Positions 1-7,447 of a stretch of 64,000 nucleotides of DNA are shown in pieces. The notes under the pieces were generated by a model. That model worked only from the letters and a program-made list of their open reading frames with translations, ran no database searches and had not been told where the DNA came from. Position 1 is the first letter of the stretch, and the number at the start of each line of letters is the position of its first letter. Source of the DNA: Patescibacteria group bacterium (lineage in GTDB: Bacteria; Patescibacteriota; Patescibacteriia; UBA2591; UBA6264); the NCBI GenBank assembly GCA_028713575.1, contig JAQTOB010000004.1, positions 5,250 through 69,249 of the forward strand, written 5' to 3'. Both the position numbers and the translations under genes were made by a program.

Positions 1-100
1 TTGTCGCAAGGAAATAGACAGCTCTAACTATTTTTGCGCCGCGGCGGGCAAAGCTTGTTCCGAAGGAGTTTCTGGTCATGAAGGTTATAGCGCGGGGAGT

Positions 101-2866
101 TTGGGCAGTTATGGCAACCCCAGCTGGTTATGTAGCGCAACTGATACCAGTTATCAGTGCAATGCGGCCAATAAATGTAAAACATATAACTCAAGATATT
201 GCGATGGCGTCAATACTTGGAATTCCGGCACAGGCGCAGGCATATCAGTGACAGGTTGCAACGCTTATTCTTGTGGTTCTAGTGTGTTGGTGGTGAGAGA
301 CGCTTGTAATGGTTTGGGAGCATGCGCACCTGGGTTTGTTTTAGTAACAACCTGTGGCGGCGGGGAAAATAGCAGTTGCGTTGCCGGACAATCAACTTGT
401 CAGAATCTTTGTTCCAACAGCGTGGATGACGACGGAGACGGATACAAAGACGCTCAGGATTCCGATTGCGGCGGCTGTTCGCAGTGCACTTCCGGTGCGT
501 GCTGTAATACCTCCACCGGTTGTTATTATTCTTCCAGCACTGTCTGTCGTACGGCGGCCGATCTTTGCGACGAGGTTGAAAATTGTACGGGGTCGTCCGC
601 CAGTTGTCCAAGTGACGCTTTAAAGCCCACTGGCACTGTCTGCCGCGCGGCGGCCGGACCCTGCGATGTGGCTGAAACTTGTATTGCCGGCGCGCCCTAT
701 TGTCCACAAGATGTCAAATTAAGCGGCAAACAATCCTGCAGCACCTGTCAGTATTGCAACGGTTCTTCCGCCACTTGCCAGTATATGGCTTCAGGATCCG
801 ATACTTACGGCGATTGCGGCACCACCGGATGTTATACCGGTAATTGTGACGGTGCCGGAGCCTGCGCTTATTATCTTTCCGGCCAGCGCAATTGCGCAAC
901 ATGCCAACAATGCAATGCCAGCGGGACCTGCGTCAATATCACTTCCGGTACCGATCCTTACGGCGATTGCGGGACTTGTAAAATTTGTTCCGGTGGCGCT
1001 TGTATTAATGTAGCAATTGGGGAAGACCCCAAGAATGATTGTCCTTTTGATGATTGCAAAACCGGTCTTTGTAGCGGTTCGGGTTATTGCGCTTATTATA
1101 CTTCCGGCGAGCAGGAATGCCCTGAATGTCAAGCGTGTAGTAGTAGTGGTGTATGCGTTAATGCAGAGACGCTGGCCTGTCCTCAAGACAGGATGTATTG
1201 TTCAGACACTAACAATCGTCTTTGCGGAGCAAAAGAACCGGGAGAAGTTTGCTGTGTCCTCAAGAGCTGGGGTTGTTTTACCGCCGACACCATGATTAAG
1301 ACTACATGGGGAGGTGATAAAAAAATAAATAAAATTAGAGTCGGCGACCTGGTCCAGGGATATGATACTGAAAAAAAACAAATAAAAGAAGTCGAGGTAA
1401 ATAATGTTTTTAAACATGAAAAGCAAAATTATTATTCAATTGAATTTAAGGACAAAAGCGCTTTGAGAGTGACTAAAGACCATCCTTTATACACGGAAAA
1501 TGGTTATTTAAAAGTGGAAAATTTGAAAGTAGGAGATAAAATTGGAAGAATAAATGGTGATAAACTGGAATTTGTGGAAATAACCAAAATAAAAAAGAGT
1601 TTATTTAAAAAATCCGTTTATAACCTGGAGGTTGACGAATACCACAATTATTTCGCTAACGGATTTCTAGCACACAACAAAGAAAACGCTTGCGATAAAG
1701 CGCCGGACAATGCAGGGATAAAAAAGAACTATCCTTGTGGCACATGTAAACTTTGCTATGATGGAAGTTGTGTCAATATTGCCGCAGGAAAAGATTTAAA
1801 CAACGAGTGTCTAGCTGAAGGATGTTTGACCGGTCTTTGTAGCGGTTCGGGTTATTGCGCTTATTATACTTCTGGCCAGCAAGCTTGTTATTACGGTATG
1901 GTCTGTGACAGTTCGGGAAAGTGCGTTGTAGATCCTAACACAAATACCCTTGGAGCGGTTCAGGGAGAGACAAGGTTAATAGTAAATAATAAAAATATTT
2001 CTTTTAAAGAGGCGGCCATCTTAACCTCCAAGATTGGAACCTGTTTAAATTATCCACGTCAGACGTGCCAATCAAATGAGGATTGCCAAATTACTGACTT
2101 TGAATGTTTGCCTATGTTAAGATGTTCAAATAATCTTACTGTTACATGTGATGATGATTCCGATTGTATAAGCGGAGAAAGCGTTTGTGAGGGAGCAAAC
2201 GTCCCTGCGATTTATGGGAGTCAAAATGAGAGCGTAATCATCGAGGCAGATATTACATTAAAGCCTGATGCTTATTTAATATTTGGCGATCAGCTTTTGT
2301 TTAATGGCGGAAAAATCATTTTGGACGGGGGAGCAATATTAAGGGCAGGAAGCATGATTCAATCAGGAGGAGGTCAGGGTAGAAGGGCCTGCGCGTGCGT
2401 ATACTCTTCACTTGAGAATGAGAATTATTCTTTTAGATCATCGGGCATACTCACTCTTAGTAGTGGACAAGGACTGTGTGATGATAGTATTGTTTGCGAA
2501 GAAGGGACCGAGTTATTGGACAATTCATCAATTGATGAGCAGTGGGTTTTTAAAAGTGAAACAAAGAAGGTAGATTGGGACGGGATTCCTTTTGATTGGG
2601 TTGAAGGTGTTCGTTATAAAAAATTTTCTAAATATGATAAATACAGTAATAATGATTGTCCCTCCGACTGTGATAAATTTTATTGGCGACCCAAAGAGGA
2701 TCCGGAATCTGGTGAAATTATCTGGTATTATTATATGTGTTGTTCCGGTATAGGCCCCTATGGCCTCTCAGGATGTGGTGGTGGCGAGGCCGTGGACAGG
2801 TGTTGGTATGATCCATATTTGCCTCAACTCGCTCCTACAACAATGCCGTTTTACGGGTGGCAATAA
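101..2866 (+). CDS. Cysteine-rich repeat protein carrying an embedded Hint/intein-like (BIL-type) domain. Roughly 50-aa Cys-rich modules (CxxCxxC...GYCAYYTSG) flank the insert. The C-terminal region is Gly-rich and possibly beta-helical.
   Basis: 921-aa ORF. The motif ...C(K/L)TGLCSGSGYCAYYTSG(E/Q)Q(E/A)C... recurs before and after the insert. The insert begins CFTADTMI and ends LAHN. Confidence 0.5.
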   Translation: MGSYGNPSWLCSATDTSYQCNAANKCKTYNSRYCDGVNTWNSGTGAGISVTGCNAYSCGSSVLVVRDACNGLGACAPGFVLVTTCGGGENSSCVAGQSTCQNLCSNSVDDDGDGYKDAQDSDCGGCSQCTSGACCNTSTGCYYSSSTVCRTAADLCDEVENCTGSSASCPSDALKPTGTVCRAAAGPCDVAETCIAGAPYCPQDVKLSGKQSCSTCQYCNGSSATCQYMASGSDTYGDCGTTGCYTGNCDGAGACAYYLSGQRNCATCQQCNASGTCVNITSGTDPYGDCGTCKICSGGACINVAIGEDPKNDCPFDDCKTGLCSGSGYCAYYTSGEQECPECQACSSSGVCVNAETLACPQDRMYCSDTNNRLCGAKEPGEVCCVLKSWGCFTADTMIKTTWGGDKKINKIRVGDLVQGYDTEKKQIKEVEVNNVFKHEKQNYYSIEFKDKSALRVTKDHPLYTENGYLKVENLKVGDKIGRINGDKLEFVEITKIKKSLFKKSVYNLEVDEYHNYFANGFLAHNKENACDKAPDNAGIKKNYPCGTCKLCYDGSCVNIAAGKDLNNECLAEGCLTGLCSGSGYCAYYTSGQQACYYGMVCDSSGKCVVDPNTNTLGAVQGETRLIVNNKNISFKEAAILTSKIGTCLNYPRQTCQSNEDCQITDFECLPMLRCSNNLTVTCDDDSDCISGESVCEGANVPAIYGSQNESVIIEADITLKPDAYLIFGDQLLFNGGKIILDGGAILRAGSMIQSGGGQGRRACACVYSSLENENYSFRSSGILTLSSGQGLCDDSIVCEEGTELLDNSSIDEQWVFKSETKKVDWDGIPFDWVEGVRYKKFSKYDKYSNNDCPSDCDKFYWRPKEDPESGEIIWYYYMCCSGIGPYGLSGCGGGEAVDRCWYDPYLPQLAPTTMPFYGWQ
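1274..1678 (+). other. Hint (Hedgehog/intein-like) domain of about 135 aa inside CDS 101-2866. It starts with Cys and ends with His-Asn, but the +1 residue is Lys, so it is BIL-like rather than a canonical intein.
   Basis: The N-terminal block is CFTADTM and the C-terminal block is FLAHN. The segment is markedly more AT-rich than the flanking Cys-rich repeats. Confidence 0.5.
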
Positions 2867-2935: not shown

Positions 2936-4366
2936 TTATTTTTCTAAAATCAGTTTTTTACGAACCGTTGCCTGGTCCGTAGACAACTGGTAGATGTATG
3001 CGCCGCTGGCGACAAAGTTTCCTTTGTCGTTTTTTCCGTTCCAGATTAACGCATAACCTCCCGGCTCTTGAAAGCCGCAAAAAAACGTCTTAACAATTTT
3101 ACCAGTGATATCGAAGATAATGATTTGCACAAATGTTCTTTTAGGAATCCAATACTCAATTGTTGTTGCCGAATTAAAGGGATTTGGAAAATTCTGTTTT
3201 AAGTCAACGTTTTTTGCCAGGGTAGGAGGGGGGAGAGGATTTTTGATGTTTGCGTTTTCAGGCACGGCGATCTTAATAGCCCAGGGAATGCCCCTTCCGC
3301 CGCTGATTAACAAAAATTTGTCTTGCGTTAAAATAGCGTTACCTGTTTCCAATTTTTCCCATTTTTTTTGGTATATTAAATTACCAGAGGCGTCCATTTT
3401 GACAACATGTAATTCTTCCCAGCTTGAGTAGGGCTTTGAAAGCCTACCTTTTATCACTCCGATATACTCATTATTTTTTTCCCAACAACCGAGCATCCCG
3501 GCAGGAGACGTTTCACTATTTAGAACATCATTATTCTGCCAAACAACACTTCCCTGTTTATCAATTTTTATCAGTCCGGCGCAATAAGGTCCGGAGTTAT
3601 AATTATGTCTTGACATACCGGAGATCAGATAGCCATCTTTTGTAACAGTTAAATGCGATTCTGCTCCCATTATTTCGTGTTCTGGGTATGTTTTTTGCCA
3701 AACAAGATTTCCTTCCCCGTCAAGTTTTATCAAGCCGCCTCTATACCCGGCAAACTGACCATGAATTCCGCCAAAAAGAACATAATCATCATCATCCTTA
3801 CCTATTGTTATTCCGCAAACGTCTCCTTCCTTTGGGAGATAAGCTTTTTCCCATAGAATTTCCAGATTCTGGTCGAATTTTACCAAACAAAAATACCCAC
3901 CGTCTTCACTTTTTAGAAATCCTAAGGCCGTATAGGTACTGTCTCCGTTTTCAACTGCGTCAGTCAGGCCTCCCCACGTATAGTTATCTGGCAACCAGGT
4001 ATTCCTTTTTAATTCATTTCCCAAATTGTCGGTAATTAATAACAAATGGCCATTATCAGTACCTCCGATTATTAATAATTTTTCGTCCGCCAGTGTGAAG
4101 ATTTTATTGGGGTGTGTATAGCCAGTGATGCGGTGCTCTTGATGCCAGATAATTTCACCATTTTCTTTTTTTATTTTTAATAAACTCATTTGACCTTGGC
4201 ACCCTAGGTTGGCGTAGACATAGCCATTTTCCATTTCACCGATTGTCTGAATACTAAAATCTGATTCAATAAGTTCCGGATATTCTTTGTCCCATTCTTG
4301 GGCGCTTACATTTTGAAAAAATATAAGCGATCCCAACAAAACACTGATAAAATATTTTGTTTTCAT
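2936..4366 (-). CDS. Secreted repeat (beta-propeller-like) protein with a C-terminal T9SS-type (Por_Secre_tail-like) sorting domain
   Basis: The signal peptide is MKTKYFISVLLGSLIFFQNVSA. Repeated ...G.L.K.D..G..VW.K.Y units are present. The C-terminus reads FPNPFNSATTIEYW...IFDITGKIV...WNGKNDKGNFVASGAYIYQL. Confidence 0.5.
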   Translation of the reverse strand: MKTKYFISVLLGSLIFFQNVSAQEWDKEYPELIESDFSIQTIGEMENGYVYANLGCQGQMSLLKIKKENGEIIWHQEHRITGYTHPNKIFTLADEKLLIIGGTDNGHLLLITDNLGNELKRNTWLPDNYTWGGLTDAVENGDSTYTALGFLKSEDGGYFCLVKFDQNLEILWEKAYLPKEGDVCGITIGKDDDDYVLFGGIHGQFAGYRGGLIKLDGEGNLVWQKTYPEHEIMGAESHLTVTKDGYLISGMSRHNYNSGPYCAGLIKIDKQGSVVWQNNDVLNSETSPAGMLGCWEKNNEYIGVIKGRLSKPYSSWEELHVVKMDASGNLIYQKKWEKLETGNAILTQDKFLLISGGRGIPWAIKIAVPENANIKNPLPPPTLAKNVDLKQNFPNPFNSATTIEYWIPKRTFVQIIIFDITGKIVKTFFCGFQEPGGYALIWNGKNDKGNFVASGAYIYQLSTDQATVRKKLILEK

Positions 4367-6787: not shown

Positions 6788-7447
6788 ATGGAAAATTCTA
6801 AAGAAATAAAAAAAGCTTGGTTAATCGTCGTTGCCCTGATTTTAATCGTTTTGGTTATTGTTTTTTTTGGTAAAACAAAAACAGCCCCAACTGAAGAAAT
6901 TCTTTCTAATGAGGGCGAGGTTTTAGAACCAGTCGTGGCGGTTACTGAAATAACAGAAACAGAAACAGGTCCTTCTGAAGGAGAACAGGCAATGGAAGGA
7001 CAAAAAGCCCTTGAGTCGGCAAAAACTTTGGCTTTAAATATGAATCAAGTGTCAGCCGAGGGCGTGGTTTTAACCACCAATGGTTTGCCGGCGGACAATT
7101 CTGCCTTGCCTGGCTCATTTGCCGCGCCTTACCAATCGGAAGTTTTAGAGGAAAATGAAATTCCTCGTGGAGCCATAAGATTAAAAATTTCAGTTGATGG
7201 TTTTGAGCCAAAAGAAATTAGCGCCGTCGCGGGAAAAGCCGTGATTATCGCCTTGACTTCAATGGATGAAAATGTTCATATTCTGCGGTTTGAAGACGAA
7301 TCCTTACGAGGAATAAGAATCATTGTTTCTCCGGAAGAAACCCGAGCCATTGTTTTTAATGCGCCGGAAAAAGGGGACTATGCTTTTTATTGTGAAGCGG
7401 AAGGCCATCAGGAGCGCGGCGAAAGCGGCACGATGCGTGTAAAGTAA
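6788..7447 (+). CDS. Membrane-anchored cupredoxin-like (type 1 copper, plastocyanin/azurin fold) protein
   Basis: N-terminal TM helix. The C-terminal domain carries a His in VHILRF followed by FYCEAEGHQERGESGTM (Cys-x3-His...Met), which is a cupredoxin ligand pattern. It is a paralog of 13342-13920. Confidence 0.5.
   Translation: MENSKEIKKAWLIVVALILIVLVIVFFGKTKTAPTEEILSNEGEVLEPVVAVTEITETETGPSEGEQAMEGQKALESAKTLALNMNQVSAEGVVLTTNGLPADNSALPGSFAAPYQSEVLEENEIPRGAIRLKISVDGFEPKEISAVAGKAVIIALTSMDENVHILRFEDESLRGIRIIVSPEETRAIVFNAPEKGDYAFYCEAEGHQERGESGTMRVK

What the first reader, a model, noticed from the sequence alone, without database searches (positions are those of the whole stretch)
1274..1678. 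Hint/intein-like domain inserted between two cysteine-rich repeat modules, with strongly different base composition from its host gene
A roughly 135-aa segment starts with Cys (CFTADTMI) and ends with the intein-type His-Asn (FLAHN). It is embedded precisely between two copies of the host's repeat (C.TGLCSGSGYCAYYTSG...). The insert is AT-rich while the host repeats are GC- and Cys-codon-rich, which points to an acquired element. The +1 residue is Lys, so canonical protein splicing is unlikely. That favours a BIL-type autoprocessing or branching domain, which in other bacteria mediates protein cleavage or ligation of secreted proteins.
Basis: partly seen in the sequence, partly recalled or inferred. 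Interest (0 to 1): 0.6.

Follow-up and report, generated by a model that had tools for sequence, protein, structure and literature searches.

The report
Intein-like self-cleaving domain in secreted protein
A 135-residue intein-like (Hint) domain of the bacterial "BIL/pretoxin-HINT" type sits inside a large secreted cysteine-rich protein, probably of a Marinimicrobia bacterium. It keeps every self-processing residue but has a conserved lysine where true inteins need Cys/Ser/Thr, so it is a new member of a known kind of self-cleaving domain, not a mobile intein.

Summary
Nucleotides 1274-1678 encode a Hint domain running CFTADTMI...FLAHN, followed by Lys. It matches Pfam PT-HINT at E 2.8e-16. 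The AF2 model has pLDDT 87, and its best fold matches are Tetrahymena BIL2, mini-inteins and the C. thermocellum BIL.

It meets every sequence-testable feature of a type-A bacterial intein-like domain: Cys1, block-B TxxH, terminal His-Asn, no +1 nucleophile, no endonuclease, and a secreted repeat-protein host.

The "acquired because AT-rich" argument fails. The Hint's GC (31.6%) and GC3 (0.30) are what its amino acids and the window's codon usage predict. The Cys/Gly-rich host part is the compositional outlier.

The domain is old and selected:
- Five other lineages carry it at the same site.
- It is the best-conserved part of the protein (72% against 35-62% identity).
- Its dN/dS is about 0.12.

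Hint-free positional orthologues also exist. They have an ordinary 9-residue loop where this gene has linker-Hint-linker.

Lys at +1 is the norm in this Hint clade (187 of 266 domains), even where the protein ends 1-3 residues later.

The most likely mechanism is thioester formation at Gly424-Cys425 plus Asn559 cyclisation. That would give cleavage or excision, with possible amine-mediated religation. NCBI's pipeline already names this protein a HINT-domain protein. Interest is modest.

The parts
2..2866 (+). Host gene, 5'-truncated by the window edge (954 codons plus TAA). It encodes a secreted cysteine-rich repeat protein. The full length is 1214 aa in P0001 (99% identical) and 1596 aa, with an N-terminal signal-peptide-like leader, in P0002.
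   Evidence: weak Disintegrin-like Pfam hits for the repeats
1055..1108 (+). Upstream copy of the repeat core CKTGLCSGSGYCAYYTSG. It contains the 44-nt stretch 1061-1104 that is identical to 1829-1872.
1163..1273 (+). N-side linker of the Hint cassette (AETLACPQDRMYCSDTNNRLCGAKEPGEVCCVLKSWG). It is conserved in Hint-bearing orthologues (LCGxKxxGEVCCV) and absent from Hint-free orthologues. Gly424 is the -1 residue.
1274..1678 (+). Hint (type-A BIL / PT-HINT-like) domain, 135 aa, with no endonuclease insert.
   Evidence: Pfam/NCBIfam; PDB sequence hits; AF2 pLDDT 87.4; Foldseek TM 0.76-0.90 to BIL2, mini-inteins and Cth BIL
1274..1297 (+). Block A: Cys425 (Cys1, the predicted thioester nucleophile) in CFTADTMI.
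   Evidence: Cys1 is invariant in alignment A1 and present in 263 of 266 related domains
1472..1483 (+). Block B TxxH motif (Thr491-Lys-Asp-His494).
   Evidence: His is invariant and Thr is at least 90% conserved in A1
1616..1678 (+). Blocks F and G: VYNLEVDEYHNYFANG-FLAHN. His558-Asn559 is the terminal pair, and Asn559 is the predicted cyclising residue.
   Evidence: HN is invariant in A1 and present in 255 of 266 related domains; TIGR01443 hit
1679..1735 (+). C-side linker (KENACDKAPDNAGIKKNYP). Lys560 is the +1 residue and Cys564 is at +5. K-x-x-x-C is kept in all six Hint-bearing lineages.
   Evidence: +1 is Lys in 187 of 266 related domains
1823..1876 (+). Downstream copy of the repeat core CLTGLCSGSGYCAYYTSG.
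1937..2863 (+). C-terminal domain of unknown fold (309 aa) with the conserved core YLIxG...GGKIILDGGAxxRAGS...ACxC. It would be separated from the N-terminal repeats if the Hint cleaves.
   Evidence: conserved in orthologues; no Pfam or PDB match; AF2 model unusable, pLDDT 37

Best explanation
The segment is a functional Hint domain of the bacterial intein-like type A / pretoxin-HINT kind, long resident in this gene (gained or lost as a cassette in the family's history). It is built into a Sec-exported, disulfide-rich repeat protein. The organism is probably a Marinimicrobia-like bacterium.

Inferred mechanism:
1. After folding, Cys425 attacks the Gly424 carbonyl in an N-S acyl shift, assisted by the block-B Thr491/His494. 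This gives a thioester.
2. Asn559, assisted by His558, cyclises to a succinimide and breaks the Asn559-Lys560 bond.
3. No Cys, Ser or Thr follows the domain, so the canonical branched intermediate cannot form.
4. The outcome is therefore excision of the Hint. The protein is cut into an N-terminal repeat stalk and a C-terminal fragment of about 395 aa. As shown for type-A BILs, a fraction may be religated when the freed amino group of Lys560 attacks the thioester.
5. Conserved cysteines at -9/-8 and +5 could keep the two halves disulfide-linked. This is inference only.

Shown here: fold, motifs, conservation, selection, position and secreted context. Inferred: every chemical step and its products.
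For: - Hint identity: Pfam PT-HINT 2.8e-16 plus three other Hint/intein models above their cut-offs; TIGR intein N- and C-terminal models above their cut-offs.
- Closest solved sequences are Tetrahymena BIL2 and the C. thermocellum BIL.
- The confident AF2 model (pLDDT 87) matches these with TM 0.76-0.88.
- Catalytic set: Cys1, block-B His and the terminal His-Asn are invariant in a 30-sequence alignment. They are present in 263, and 255 (His-Asn), of 266 related domains.
- The +1 residue is Lys here and in all orthologues.
- Selection: the Hint is the best-conserved region (72% identity against 62, 48 and 35% for host regions versus P0003; 56% against 26-50% versus P0130). Its dN/dS is 0.12.
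- Secreted host: signal-peptide-like N-termini in P0002, P0130 and P0079.
- Published type-A BIL behaviour: terminal His-Asn, no +1 nucleophile, cleavage dominant, and splicing by attack of the freed amine (PMC4031507; PMC7664689).
Against: - No biochemical data exist for this protein or its orthologues.
- The periplasm or exterior is oxidising, and Cys1 must be reduced to act.
- Hint-free orthologues show that the host can work as one continuous chain. It is therefore unclear whether cleavage or religation is the selected outcome.
- In P0135 the C-extein is only 20 aa. In other clade members it is 1-3 aa. Release of a large C-terminal domain cannot be the general purpose of this Hint clade.
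Confidence: 0.75

Rival explanations
1. Pretoxin HINT of a polymorphic toxin. The Hint cuts off the C-terminal ~395 aa as a toxin or effector that is delivered to competitors. This is the meaning behind NCBI's name for P0001.
For: - The best Pfam match is PF07591 PT-HINT.
- NCBI names the 99%-identical P0001 a 'polymorphic toxin-type HINT domain-containing protein'.
- In polymorphic toxins the HINT peptidase lies just before the toxin domain of Sec-exported proteins (PMC3482391).
- The C-terminal domain has no known function.
Against: - The C-terminal region is not polymorphic. It is identical in the 86-99% relatives and orthologous (27-36% identity) in all distant ones.
- It matches no toxin family.
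- No same-strand immunity-like ORF follows. The next gene is a convergent T9SS-sorted protein, kept in synteny.
- Hint-free orthologues carry the same C-terminal domain fused directly to the repeats.
- P0135 has only 20 aa after the Hint.
Confidence: 0.12
2. Lysine-directed acyl transfer. The conserved +1 Lys is the acceptor. Its epsilon-amine attacks the Cys1 thioester and gives an isopeptide-linked (branched) product. This would be analogous to the Lys-isopeptide chemistry reported for Tetrahymena BIL2.
For: - Lys is at +1 in 187 of 266 domains of the clade. The query ended at Asn, so the search did not select for it.
- Lys is kept even where the protein ends 1-3 residues later, as in HNK, HNKL and HNKPS.
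- The top sequence and fold match is BIL2. BIL2 forms a Lys epsilon-amine isopeptide bond (PMC8616854).
Against: - In BIL2 the acceptor lysine is described as lying in the downstream ubiquitin-like domain or in other substrates, not as the +1 residue.
- A conserved Lys could instead tune Asn cyclisation or simply be part of the fold.
- 30% of clade members lack it.
Confidence: 0.12
3. A true mobile mini-intein that splices out cleanly, with Lys tolerated at +1 or with another downstream nucleophile used.
For: - Intein N- and C-terminal models score above their cut-offs.
- Fold matches to mini-inteins reach TM 0.9.
- An insert-free orthologue exists.
Against: - There is no Cys, Ser or Thr at +1 in any orthologue. 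The nearest Cys is at +5.
- The host is a variable secreted repeat protein, not a conserved site of an essential enzyme.
- There is no homing endonuclease.
- The domain evolves more slowly than its host, the opposite of a selfish insert.
- The insert-free orthologue lacks the two linkers as well, so a clean splice would not recreate it.
Confidence: 0.03
4. An inactive relic that now serves only as a structural spacer.
For: Hint-free orthologues show that the cassette is dispensable for the basic architecture.
Against: All catalytic residues are invariant across lineages whose synonymous sites are near saturation (dS about 1.35), with dN/dS of 0.12. A spacer would not keep Cys1, TxxH and His-Asn.
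Confidence: 0.04

Closest known systems
Type-A bacterial intein-like (BIL) domains (Amitai et al. 2003; Dassa et al. 2004; C. thermocellum BIL, PDB 2lwy)
   Same: Hint fold of about 135-140 aa without an endonuclease. Cys1, block-B TxxH and a terminal His-Asn. No +1 nucleophile. Found in secreted or variable bacterial proteins. The phmmer E-value to 2lwy is 9.3e-10 and the target-normalised TM-score is 0.88.
   Different: The host is a previously undescribed cysteine-rich repeat protein family of uncultured, Marinimicrobia-like bacteria. This clade has a strongly conserved Lys at +1 and, in this family, a conserved K-x-x-x-C downstream. I could not find this described in the papers held. No activity has been tested.
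Pretoxin HINT (Pfam PF07591) of polymorphic toxin systems (Zhang et al. 2012)
   Same: It is the best-scoring Pfam model and lies in a Sec-exported multi-repeat protein, upstream of a C-terminal domain.
   Different: The C-terminal domain is conserved rather than polymorphic and is not a known toxin. There is no adjacent immunity gene. A Cys-rich module separates the Hint from that domain.
BIL2 of the Tetrahymena thermophila BUBL1 polyubiquitin-like locus (PDB 6y75, 6tmm)
   Same: It is the best hit by both sequence (3.9e-10) and fold (E 7e-12, TM 0.76-0.83). It is also a Hint that transfers its N-extein to an amine rather than to a +1 Cys, Ser or Thr.
   Different: BIL2 is eukaryotic, cytoplasmic and flanked by ubiquitin-like domains. 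None of these applies here.
Class-1 mini-inteins (Npu/Ssp DnaB, Mtu RecA, gp41-1)
   Same: Same fold (target-normalised TM up to 0.90), same Cys1, block-B His and terminal His-Asn.
   Different: Inteins need Cys, Ser or Thr at +1, sit in conserved sites of essential proteins and behave as selfish inserts. Here +1 is Lys, the host is a secreted repeat protein, and the domain is under stronger constraint than its host.
Hedgehog/Hog autoprocessing domains
   Same: A Gly-Cys-Phe junction and a thioester-forming Hint that modifies the C-terminus of a secreted N-terminal part. Some clade members (P0135, P0232, P0254) have the Hint almost at the C-terminus.
   Different: Hog domains lack the terminal His-Asn and use a sterol-recruiting extension. 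Here His-Asn is invariant and there is no such extension.

Membership tests
HINT superfamily | Hint horseshoe beta-fold | tested here: met
   AF2 model pLDDT 87.4, pTM 0.81. Foldseek found 69 PDB hits at E<=0.001, all listed ones BIL, intein or hedgehog, with target-normalised TM up to 0.90.
HINT superfamily | Significant match to Hint profile models | tested here: met
   PF07591, PF14890, PF01079 and PF13403 all score above their gathering scores. So do TIGR01445 and TIGR01443.
Type-A BIL domain | N-terminal Cys (or Ser) nucleophile and block-B TxxH | tested here: met
   Cys425 and Thr491..His494. Both are invariant or nearly invariant in alignment A1.
Type-A BIL domain | C-terminal His-Asn as in intein block G | tested here: met
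   His558-Asn559, invariant in A1. Definition taken from PMC4031507.
Type-A BIL domain | No nucleophilic residue at +1 | tested here: met
   Lys560 in the window and in all orthologues.
Type-A BIL domain | Resides in secreted or variable bacterial proteins, not in conserved sites of essential proteins; no homing endonuclease | tested here: met
   The host is a Cys-rich repeat protein with signal-peptide-like leaders. Repeat number varies between close relatives. The domain is 135 aa with no insert.
Type-A BIL domain | Autocatalytic N- and C-terminal cleavage, with minor splicing | not testable with these tools
   Needs expression of the fragment and analysis of the products.
Canonical (class 1) intein | Cys, Ser or Thr at +1 for transesterification | tested here: not met
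   +1 is Lys. The first downstream Cys is at +5.
Canonical (class 1) intein | Insertion in a conserved functional site of a housekeeping protein, with sporadic selfish distribution | tested here: not met
   The host is a repeat protein. The Hint is present at the same site in 6 lineages, with dN/dS 0.12 and higher conservation than the host. One Hint-free orthologous lineage exists, but it also lacks both linkers.
Polymorphic toxin with pretoxin HINT | Match to PF07591 | tested here: met
   60.5 bits against a cut-off of 27.7.
Polymorphic toxin with pretoxin HINT | HINT immediately precedes a C-terminal toxin domain that varies between close relatives | tested here: not met
   A Cys module plus a 309-aa domain follow the Hint. 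This region is identical in the 86-99% relatives and orthologous in distant ones. It matches no toxin family.
Polymorphic toxin with pretoxin HINT | Cognate immunity gene directly downstream | tested here: not met
   The next gene is convergent (nt 2936-4366, minus strand), a T9SS-sorted protein conserved in synteny.
BUBL-type BIL | Flanked by ubiquitin-like domains | tested here: not met
   The flanks are Cys-rich linkers and repeats. No ubiquitin family hit was found.
Hedgehog/Hog domain | C-terminal position with a sterol-recognition extension and no terminal His-Asn requirement | tested here: not met
   His-Asn is invariant, and the C-extein is 395 aa here.

The most novel reading that the evidence does not exclude
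This Hint belongs to a large, undescribed bacterial clade defined by the signature Cys1 ... His-Asn-Lys. In this reading the +1 lysine is part of the catalytic unit. It accepts the N-extein from the Cys1 thioester and produces an isopeptide-branched or lysine-ligated product. That would be a bacterial, extracellular counterpart of the ATP-independent Lys conjugation reported for Tetrahymena BIL2. The same chemistry would operate in the tandem HN|KGG|C arrays of related membrane proteins.
Probability: 0.12. Interest if true: 0.7.

Novelty: new member of a known kind. Interest (0 to 1): 0.33.

Why it matters
If the domain is active, a large secreted protein of an uncultured marine or sediment lineage is cut, or rejoined, after export without any protease or ATP.

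The family offers natural controls: Hint-bearing and Hint-free orthologues in the same genomic position.

The conserved +1 lysine of the clade is a concrete, cheaply testable lead. It bears on how non-canonical Hint domains resolve their thioester, which matters for protein-ligation tools.

As it stands, though, this is a recognisable BIL/PT-HINT domain that the NCBI annotation pipeline already labels.

Tried and rejected
1. The search for homologous proteins with the Hint alone and with the C-terminal domain alone returned nothing, although 99%-identical proteins exist. This is a limit of the word index, not evidence of absence. Two calls (21, 22) failed because of a frame error.

2. Composition as evidence of acquisition is rejected. 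The Hint's GC and GC3 equal the expectation from its amino acids and local codon usage. The same contrast appears in an orthologue, and the dS values are equal.

3. No other Hint copy exists in the window, by tblastn and a family HMM on six frames.

4. The identity of the C-terminal domain could not be established. Pfam and NCBIfam gave nothing. A PDB profile search gave nothing. The AF2 model from 4 sequences had pLDDT 37 and was not searched.

5. The metagenome and genome scans with the C-terminal alignment found only Hint-bearing members, plus one contig cut exactly at the Asn-Lys junction. The Hint-free orthologues were found instead by re-screening the 120 host homologues.

6. Gain versus loss of the cassette is unresolved. 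The C-terminal domain tree is star-like, and the neighbouring-gene identities conflict.

7. Deletion by recombination between the 44-nt identical flanking repeats was considered. It would be in frame (768 nt). However, the Hint-free orthologue differs exactly by linker-Hint-linker against a 9-residue loop, which does not match that product.

8. The Dassa et al. 2004 paper is not in the held library. I found no paper describing a conserved +1 Lys in bacterial BILs.
Full report
**1. What is in the sequence**

The finding lies in a long open frame (frame 2, nt 2-2866, + strand) that enters the window already open and ends at TAA 2864-2866. Residues 425-559 of this translation (nt 1274-1678) read CFTADTMIKTTWGGD...VYNLEVDEYHNYFANGFLAHN and are followed by Lys-Glu-Asn-Ala-Cys. 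The frame is unambiguous, so re-reading cannot produce a Ser, Thr or Cys at +1.

The repeat core C[KL]TGLCSGSGYCAYYTSG occurs at nt 1055-1108 and again at nt 1823-1876.
- The two copies share a 44-nt exact stretch (1061-1104 and 1829-1872).
- Their spacing is 768 nt, which is in frame.
- These are the only repeated 20-mers in the gene.
- The Hint does not abut either copy. A 37-aa linker lies on its N side (nt 1163-1273) and a 19-aa linker on its C side (nt 1679-1735).

**2. It is a Hint domain**

Profile models agree:
- Pfam gives PT-HINT E 2.8e-16 (60.5 bits, cut-off 27.7). Intein_splicing, Hint_2 and Hint also score above their cut-offs.
- NCBIfam gives the intein N-terminal and C-terminal splicing regions above their cut-offs.

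Solved structures agree:
- The nearest solved sequences are the BIL2 domain of the Tetrahymena BUBL1 locus (6y75/6tmm, E 4e-10) and the C. thermocellum bacterial intein-like domain (2lwy, 9e-10). Canonical mini-inteins score lower.
- An AF2 model built on a 30-sequence alignment is confident over the whole domain (pLDDT 87.4, with 129 residues at or above 90). The flanks are disordered in the model.
- Foldseek against the PDB returns BIL2, mini-inteins, 2lwy (target-normalised TM 0.88) and hedgehog.

In the alignment, Cys1, the block-B His, and the terminal His and Asn are invariant. The block-B Thr is at least 90% conserved. There is no endonuclease insert, and no second Hint is present anywhere in the window.

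**3. The composition argument does not hold**

| Region | GC | GC3 |
|---|---|---|
| Whole window | 36.2% | gene range 0.24-0.44, mean 0.34 |
| Hint, observed | 31.6% | 0.304 |
| Hint, expected from its amino acids and the window's codon usage | 31.5% | 0.298 |
| Host N-terminal part, observed | 51.1% | 0.45 |
| Host N-terminal part, expected | 48.9% | 0.392 |

The host N-terminal part is the outlier. Most of its excess sits at codon position 2 (GC2 0.616) because it is made of Cys, Gly, Ala, Ser and Thr, and most of it is explained by composition.

The same contrast is present in a 52%-identical orthologue, where the Hint is 31.9% GC and the upstream part 46.2%. Synonymous divergence of the Hint (dS 1.35) equals that of the host N-part (1.43). 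The domain therefore looks native and old. Base composition says nothing about acquisition.

**4. Relatives**

Close relatives:
- P0001 (NCBI, 1214 aa) is 99% identical. It is named 'polymorphic toxin-type HINT domain-containing protein [Candidatus Marinimicrobia bacterium...]'.
- P0002 (1596 aa) is 86% identical and supplies the missing N-terminus with a signal-peptide-like leader.

More distant family members all carry the Hint at the same place:
- P0003/L001/L003, P0029/L004/L005, L006, P0130/L008 and P0135/L007.
- All share the flanks (LCGxKxxGEVCCV...x|C and HN|KxxxC).

The Hint is the best-conserved part of the protein:

| Compared with | Hint | N-terminal repeats | Post-Hint Cys module | C-terminal domain |
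|---|---|---|---|---|
| P0003 | 72% | 62% | 48% | 35% |
| P0130 | 56% | 42% | 50% | 26% |

Its dN/dS is 0.12, against 0.21 for the N-terminal repeats. This is the signature of a selected, functional domain. It is not what a selfish or decaying insert would show.

**5. Insert-free orthologues exist**

Re-screening the host homologues found two proteins, P0079 (1343 aa) and P0088 (845 aa).
- They have the same leader, the same repeats and the same C-terminal domain, which is 35% identical over the conserved core.
- They give no Hint hit even at E 10.
- They sit in the same genomic position. The upstream 176-aa gene is 37-47% identical. The same convergent T9SS-sorted gene follows, and then the same cupredoxin gene (44-66% identical).
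- At the equivalent point their sequence runs ...CNSSGVCVSV-TNSTDPYTD-CGTCRYCQNGAC.... This is the ordinary inter-module loop, also seen elsewhere in the window protein as ITSGTDPYGD.
- The window has 37-aa linker + Hint + 19-aa linker at that point.

The unit that is present or absent is therefore a ~190-aa cassette in a loop between repeat sub-modules. The C-terminal-domain tree is star-like, and the neighbouring-gene identities disagree with one another. Ancient gain and lineage-specific loss cannot be told apart.

**6. The +1 lysine is a clade feature**

An exhaustive phmmer search was run with the 135-aa Hint. The query ended at Asn, so the search could not select for the next residue. 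It found 10,467 proteins at E<=0.001.

Among the 266 full-length domains in the 152 proteins analysed (the 150 best hits, two of which are P0001 and P0029, plus P0002 and P0003):

| Feature | Count out of 266 |
|---|---|
| Start with Cys | 263 |
| End in His-Asn | 255 |
| Lys at +1 | 187 (70%) |
| Cys, Ser or Thr at +1 | 33 |

Further points:
- Many relatives are tandem arrays with HN|KGG|C junctions. Examples are P0121-P0124, and P0121 also has a Tim44-like domain.
- Of 126 proteins with a complete last Hint, 18 end within 5 residues of it. These commonly end ...HNK...HNKL or ...HNKPS.
- P0135, whose gene is complete inside a 24.6-kb contig, has only 20 residues after the Hint. It still keeps K-x-x-x-C.

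Release of a large C-terminal domain therefore cannot be the general role of this clade. The Lys behaves as part of the domain's signature.

**7. Mechanism**

From established intein and BIL chemistry (PMC4031507; PMC7664689), Cys1 with the block-B Thr/His predicts an N-S acyl shift at Gly424-Cys425. His558-Asn559 predicts succinimide formation that breaks the Asn559-Lys560 bond.

Without a +1 thiol or hydroxyl, the branched ester intermediate cannot form. Type-A BILs in this state give mainly N- and C-cleavage, with some ligation when the freed amine attacks the thioester. I take this as the most likely behaviour here (confidence 0.75 for the class and general mechanism).

Which product is biologically selected is open. 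The Hint-free orthologues show that a continuous chain is functional. That is compatible with religation, or with regulated separation of the C-terminal domain from the repeat stalk.

Conserved cysteines at -9/-8 (Cys417/Cys418, nt 1250-1255) and +5 could hold the halves together. This is inference only.

**8. Rivals**

- *Pretoxin HINT of a polymorphic toxin (0.12).* The Pfam family and the NCBI name point this way. Three defining features fail: a variable C-terminal toxin, a known toxin fold, and a downstream immunity gene.
- *Lys-directed isopeptide or branched transfer (0.12).* It is motivated by the conserved +1 Lys and by BIL2, which forms a Lys epsilon-amine isopeptide (PMC8616854). It is untested, and in BIL2 the acceptor Lys is not described as the +1 residue.
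- *True mobile intein (0.03).*
- *Inactive relic (0.04).* Section 4 argues against both of the last two.

**9. Novelty and verdict**

The domain meets every sequence-testable criterion of a type-A BIL, and NCBI's automatic annotation already labels it a HINT domain. It is a new member of a known kind, in a new host family.

The parts that go beyond routine are three:
- the natural Hint-bearing and Hint-free orthologue pair;
- the cassette with its own conserved Cys-containing linkers;
- the clade-wide His-Asn-Lys signature.

Interest is 0.33.

Noticed in passing
window 2936-4366 (minus strand); L003 1169-2707; L006 2804-4195; L008 10087-11499; L010 6271-7647: The convergent downstream gene encodes a ~460-510-aa protein with a T9SS C-terminal sorting domain (Por_Secre_tail plus FlgD_ig). 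It stays next to the Cys-rich gene in every locus, Hint-bearing or Hint-free, at only 24-32% identity. A small upstream gene of 176-192 aa with no Pfam match and a nearby cupredoxin gene (window 6788-7447) are also syntenic.
   Followed up: partly
window 1061-1104 and 1829-1872: A 44-nt exact repeat lies in the two Cys modules on either side of the Hint, spaced 768 nt apart (in frame). Other module copies are only 70-75% identical, and orthologues do not share this identity at the protein level. This suggests recent gene conversion between the flanking modules in this lineage.
   Followed up: partly
window ~783-975 compared with P0002; P0079 compared with P0088: Repeat-number variation occurs between near-identical proteins. 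P0002 lacks a 51-aa module that the window and P0001 have. P0088 equals P0079 minus an internal 498 aa, with identical ends. This points to frequent in-frame recombination within the Cys-rich repeats.
   Followed up: no
P0121-P0124, P0136-P0143 (related proteins, not in the window): A large group of proteins has a signal peptide followed by 3-5 tandem Hint domains joined only by KGG or KG (HN|KGG|C). In P0121 the domains are followed by a Tim44-like domain. If each Hint is active, these proteins would shed or re-join tri-peptide linkers. I know of no description of this architecture.
   Followed up: partly
window 1937-2863: The 309-aa C-terminal domain has the conserved core YLIxG..GGKIILDGGAxxRAGS..ACxC and a C-terminal aromatic residue. 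It has no Pfam, NCBIfam or PDB match and could not be modelled from 4 sequences.
   Followed up: partly
L006 (JAFGLS010000054.1): This 4.3-kb contig carries a family member and the same T9SS neighbour. It is 38% GC but is labelled 'Syntrophaceae bacterium' MAG. It may be mis-binned, because all other members look Marinimicrobia-like.
   Followed up: no
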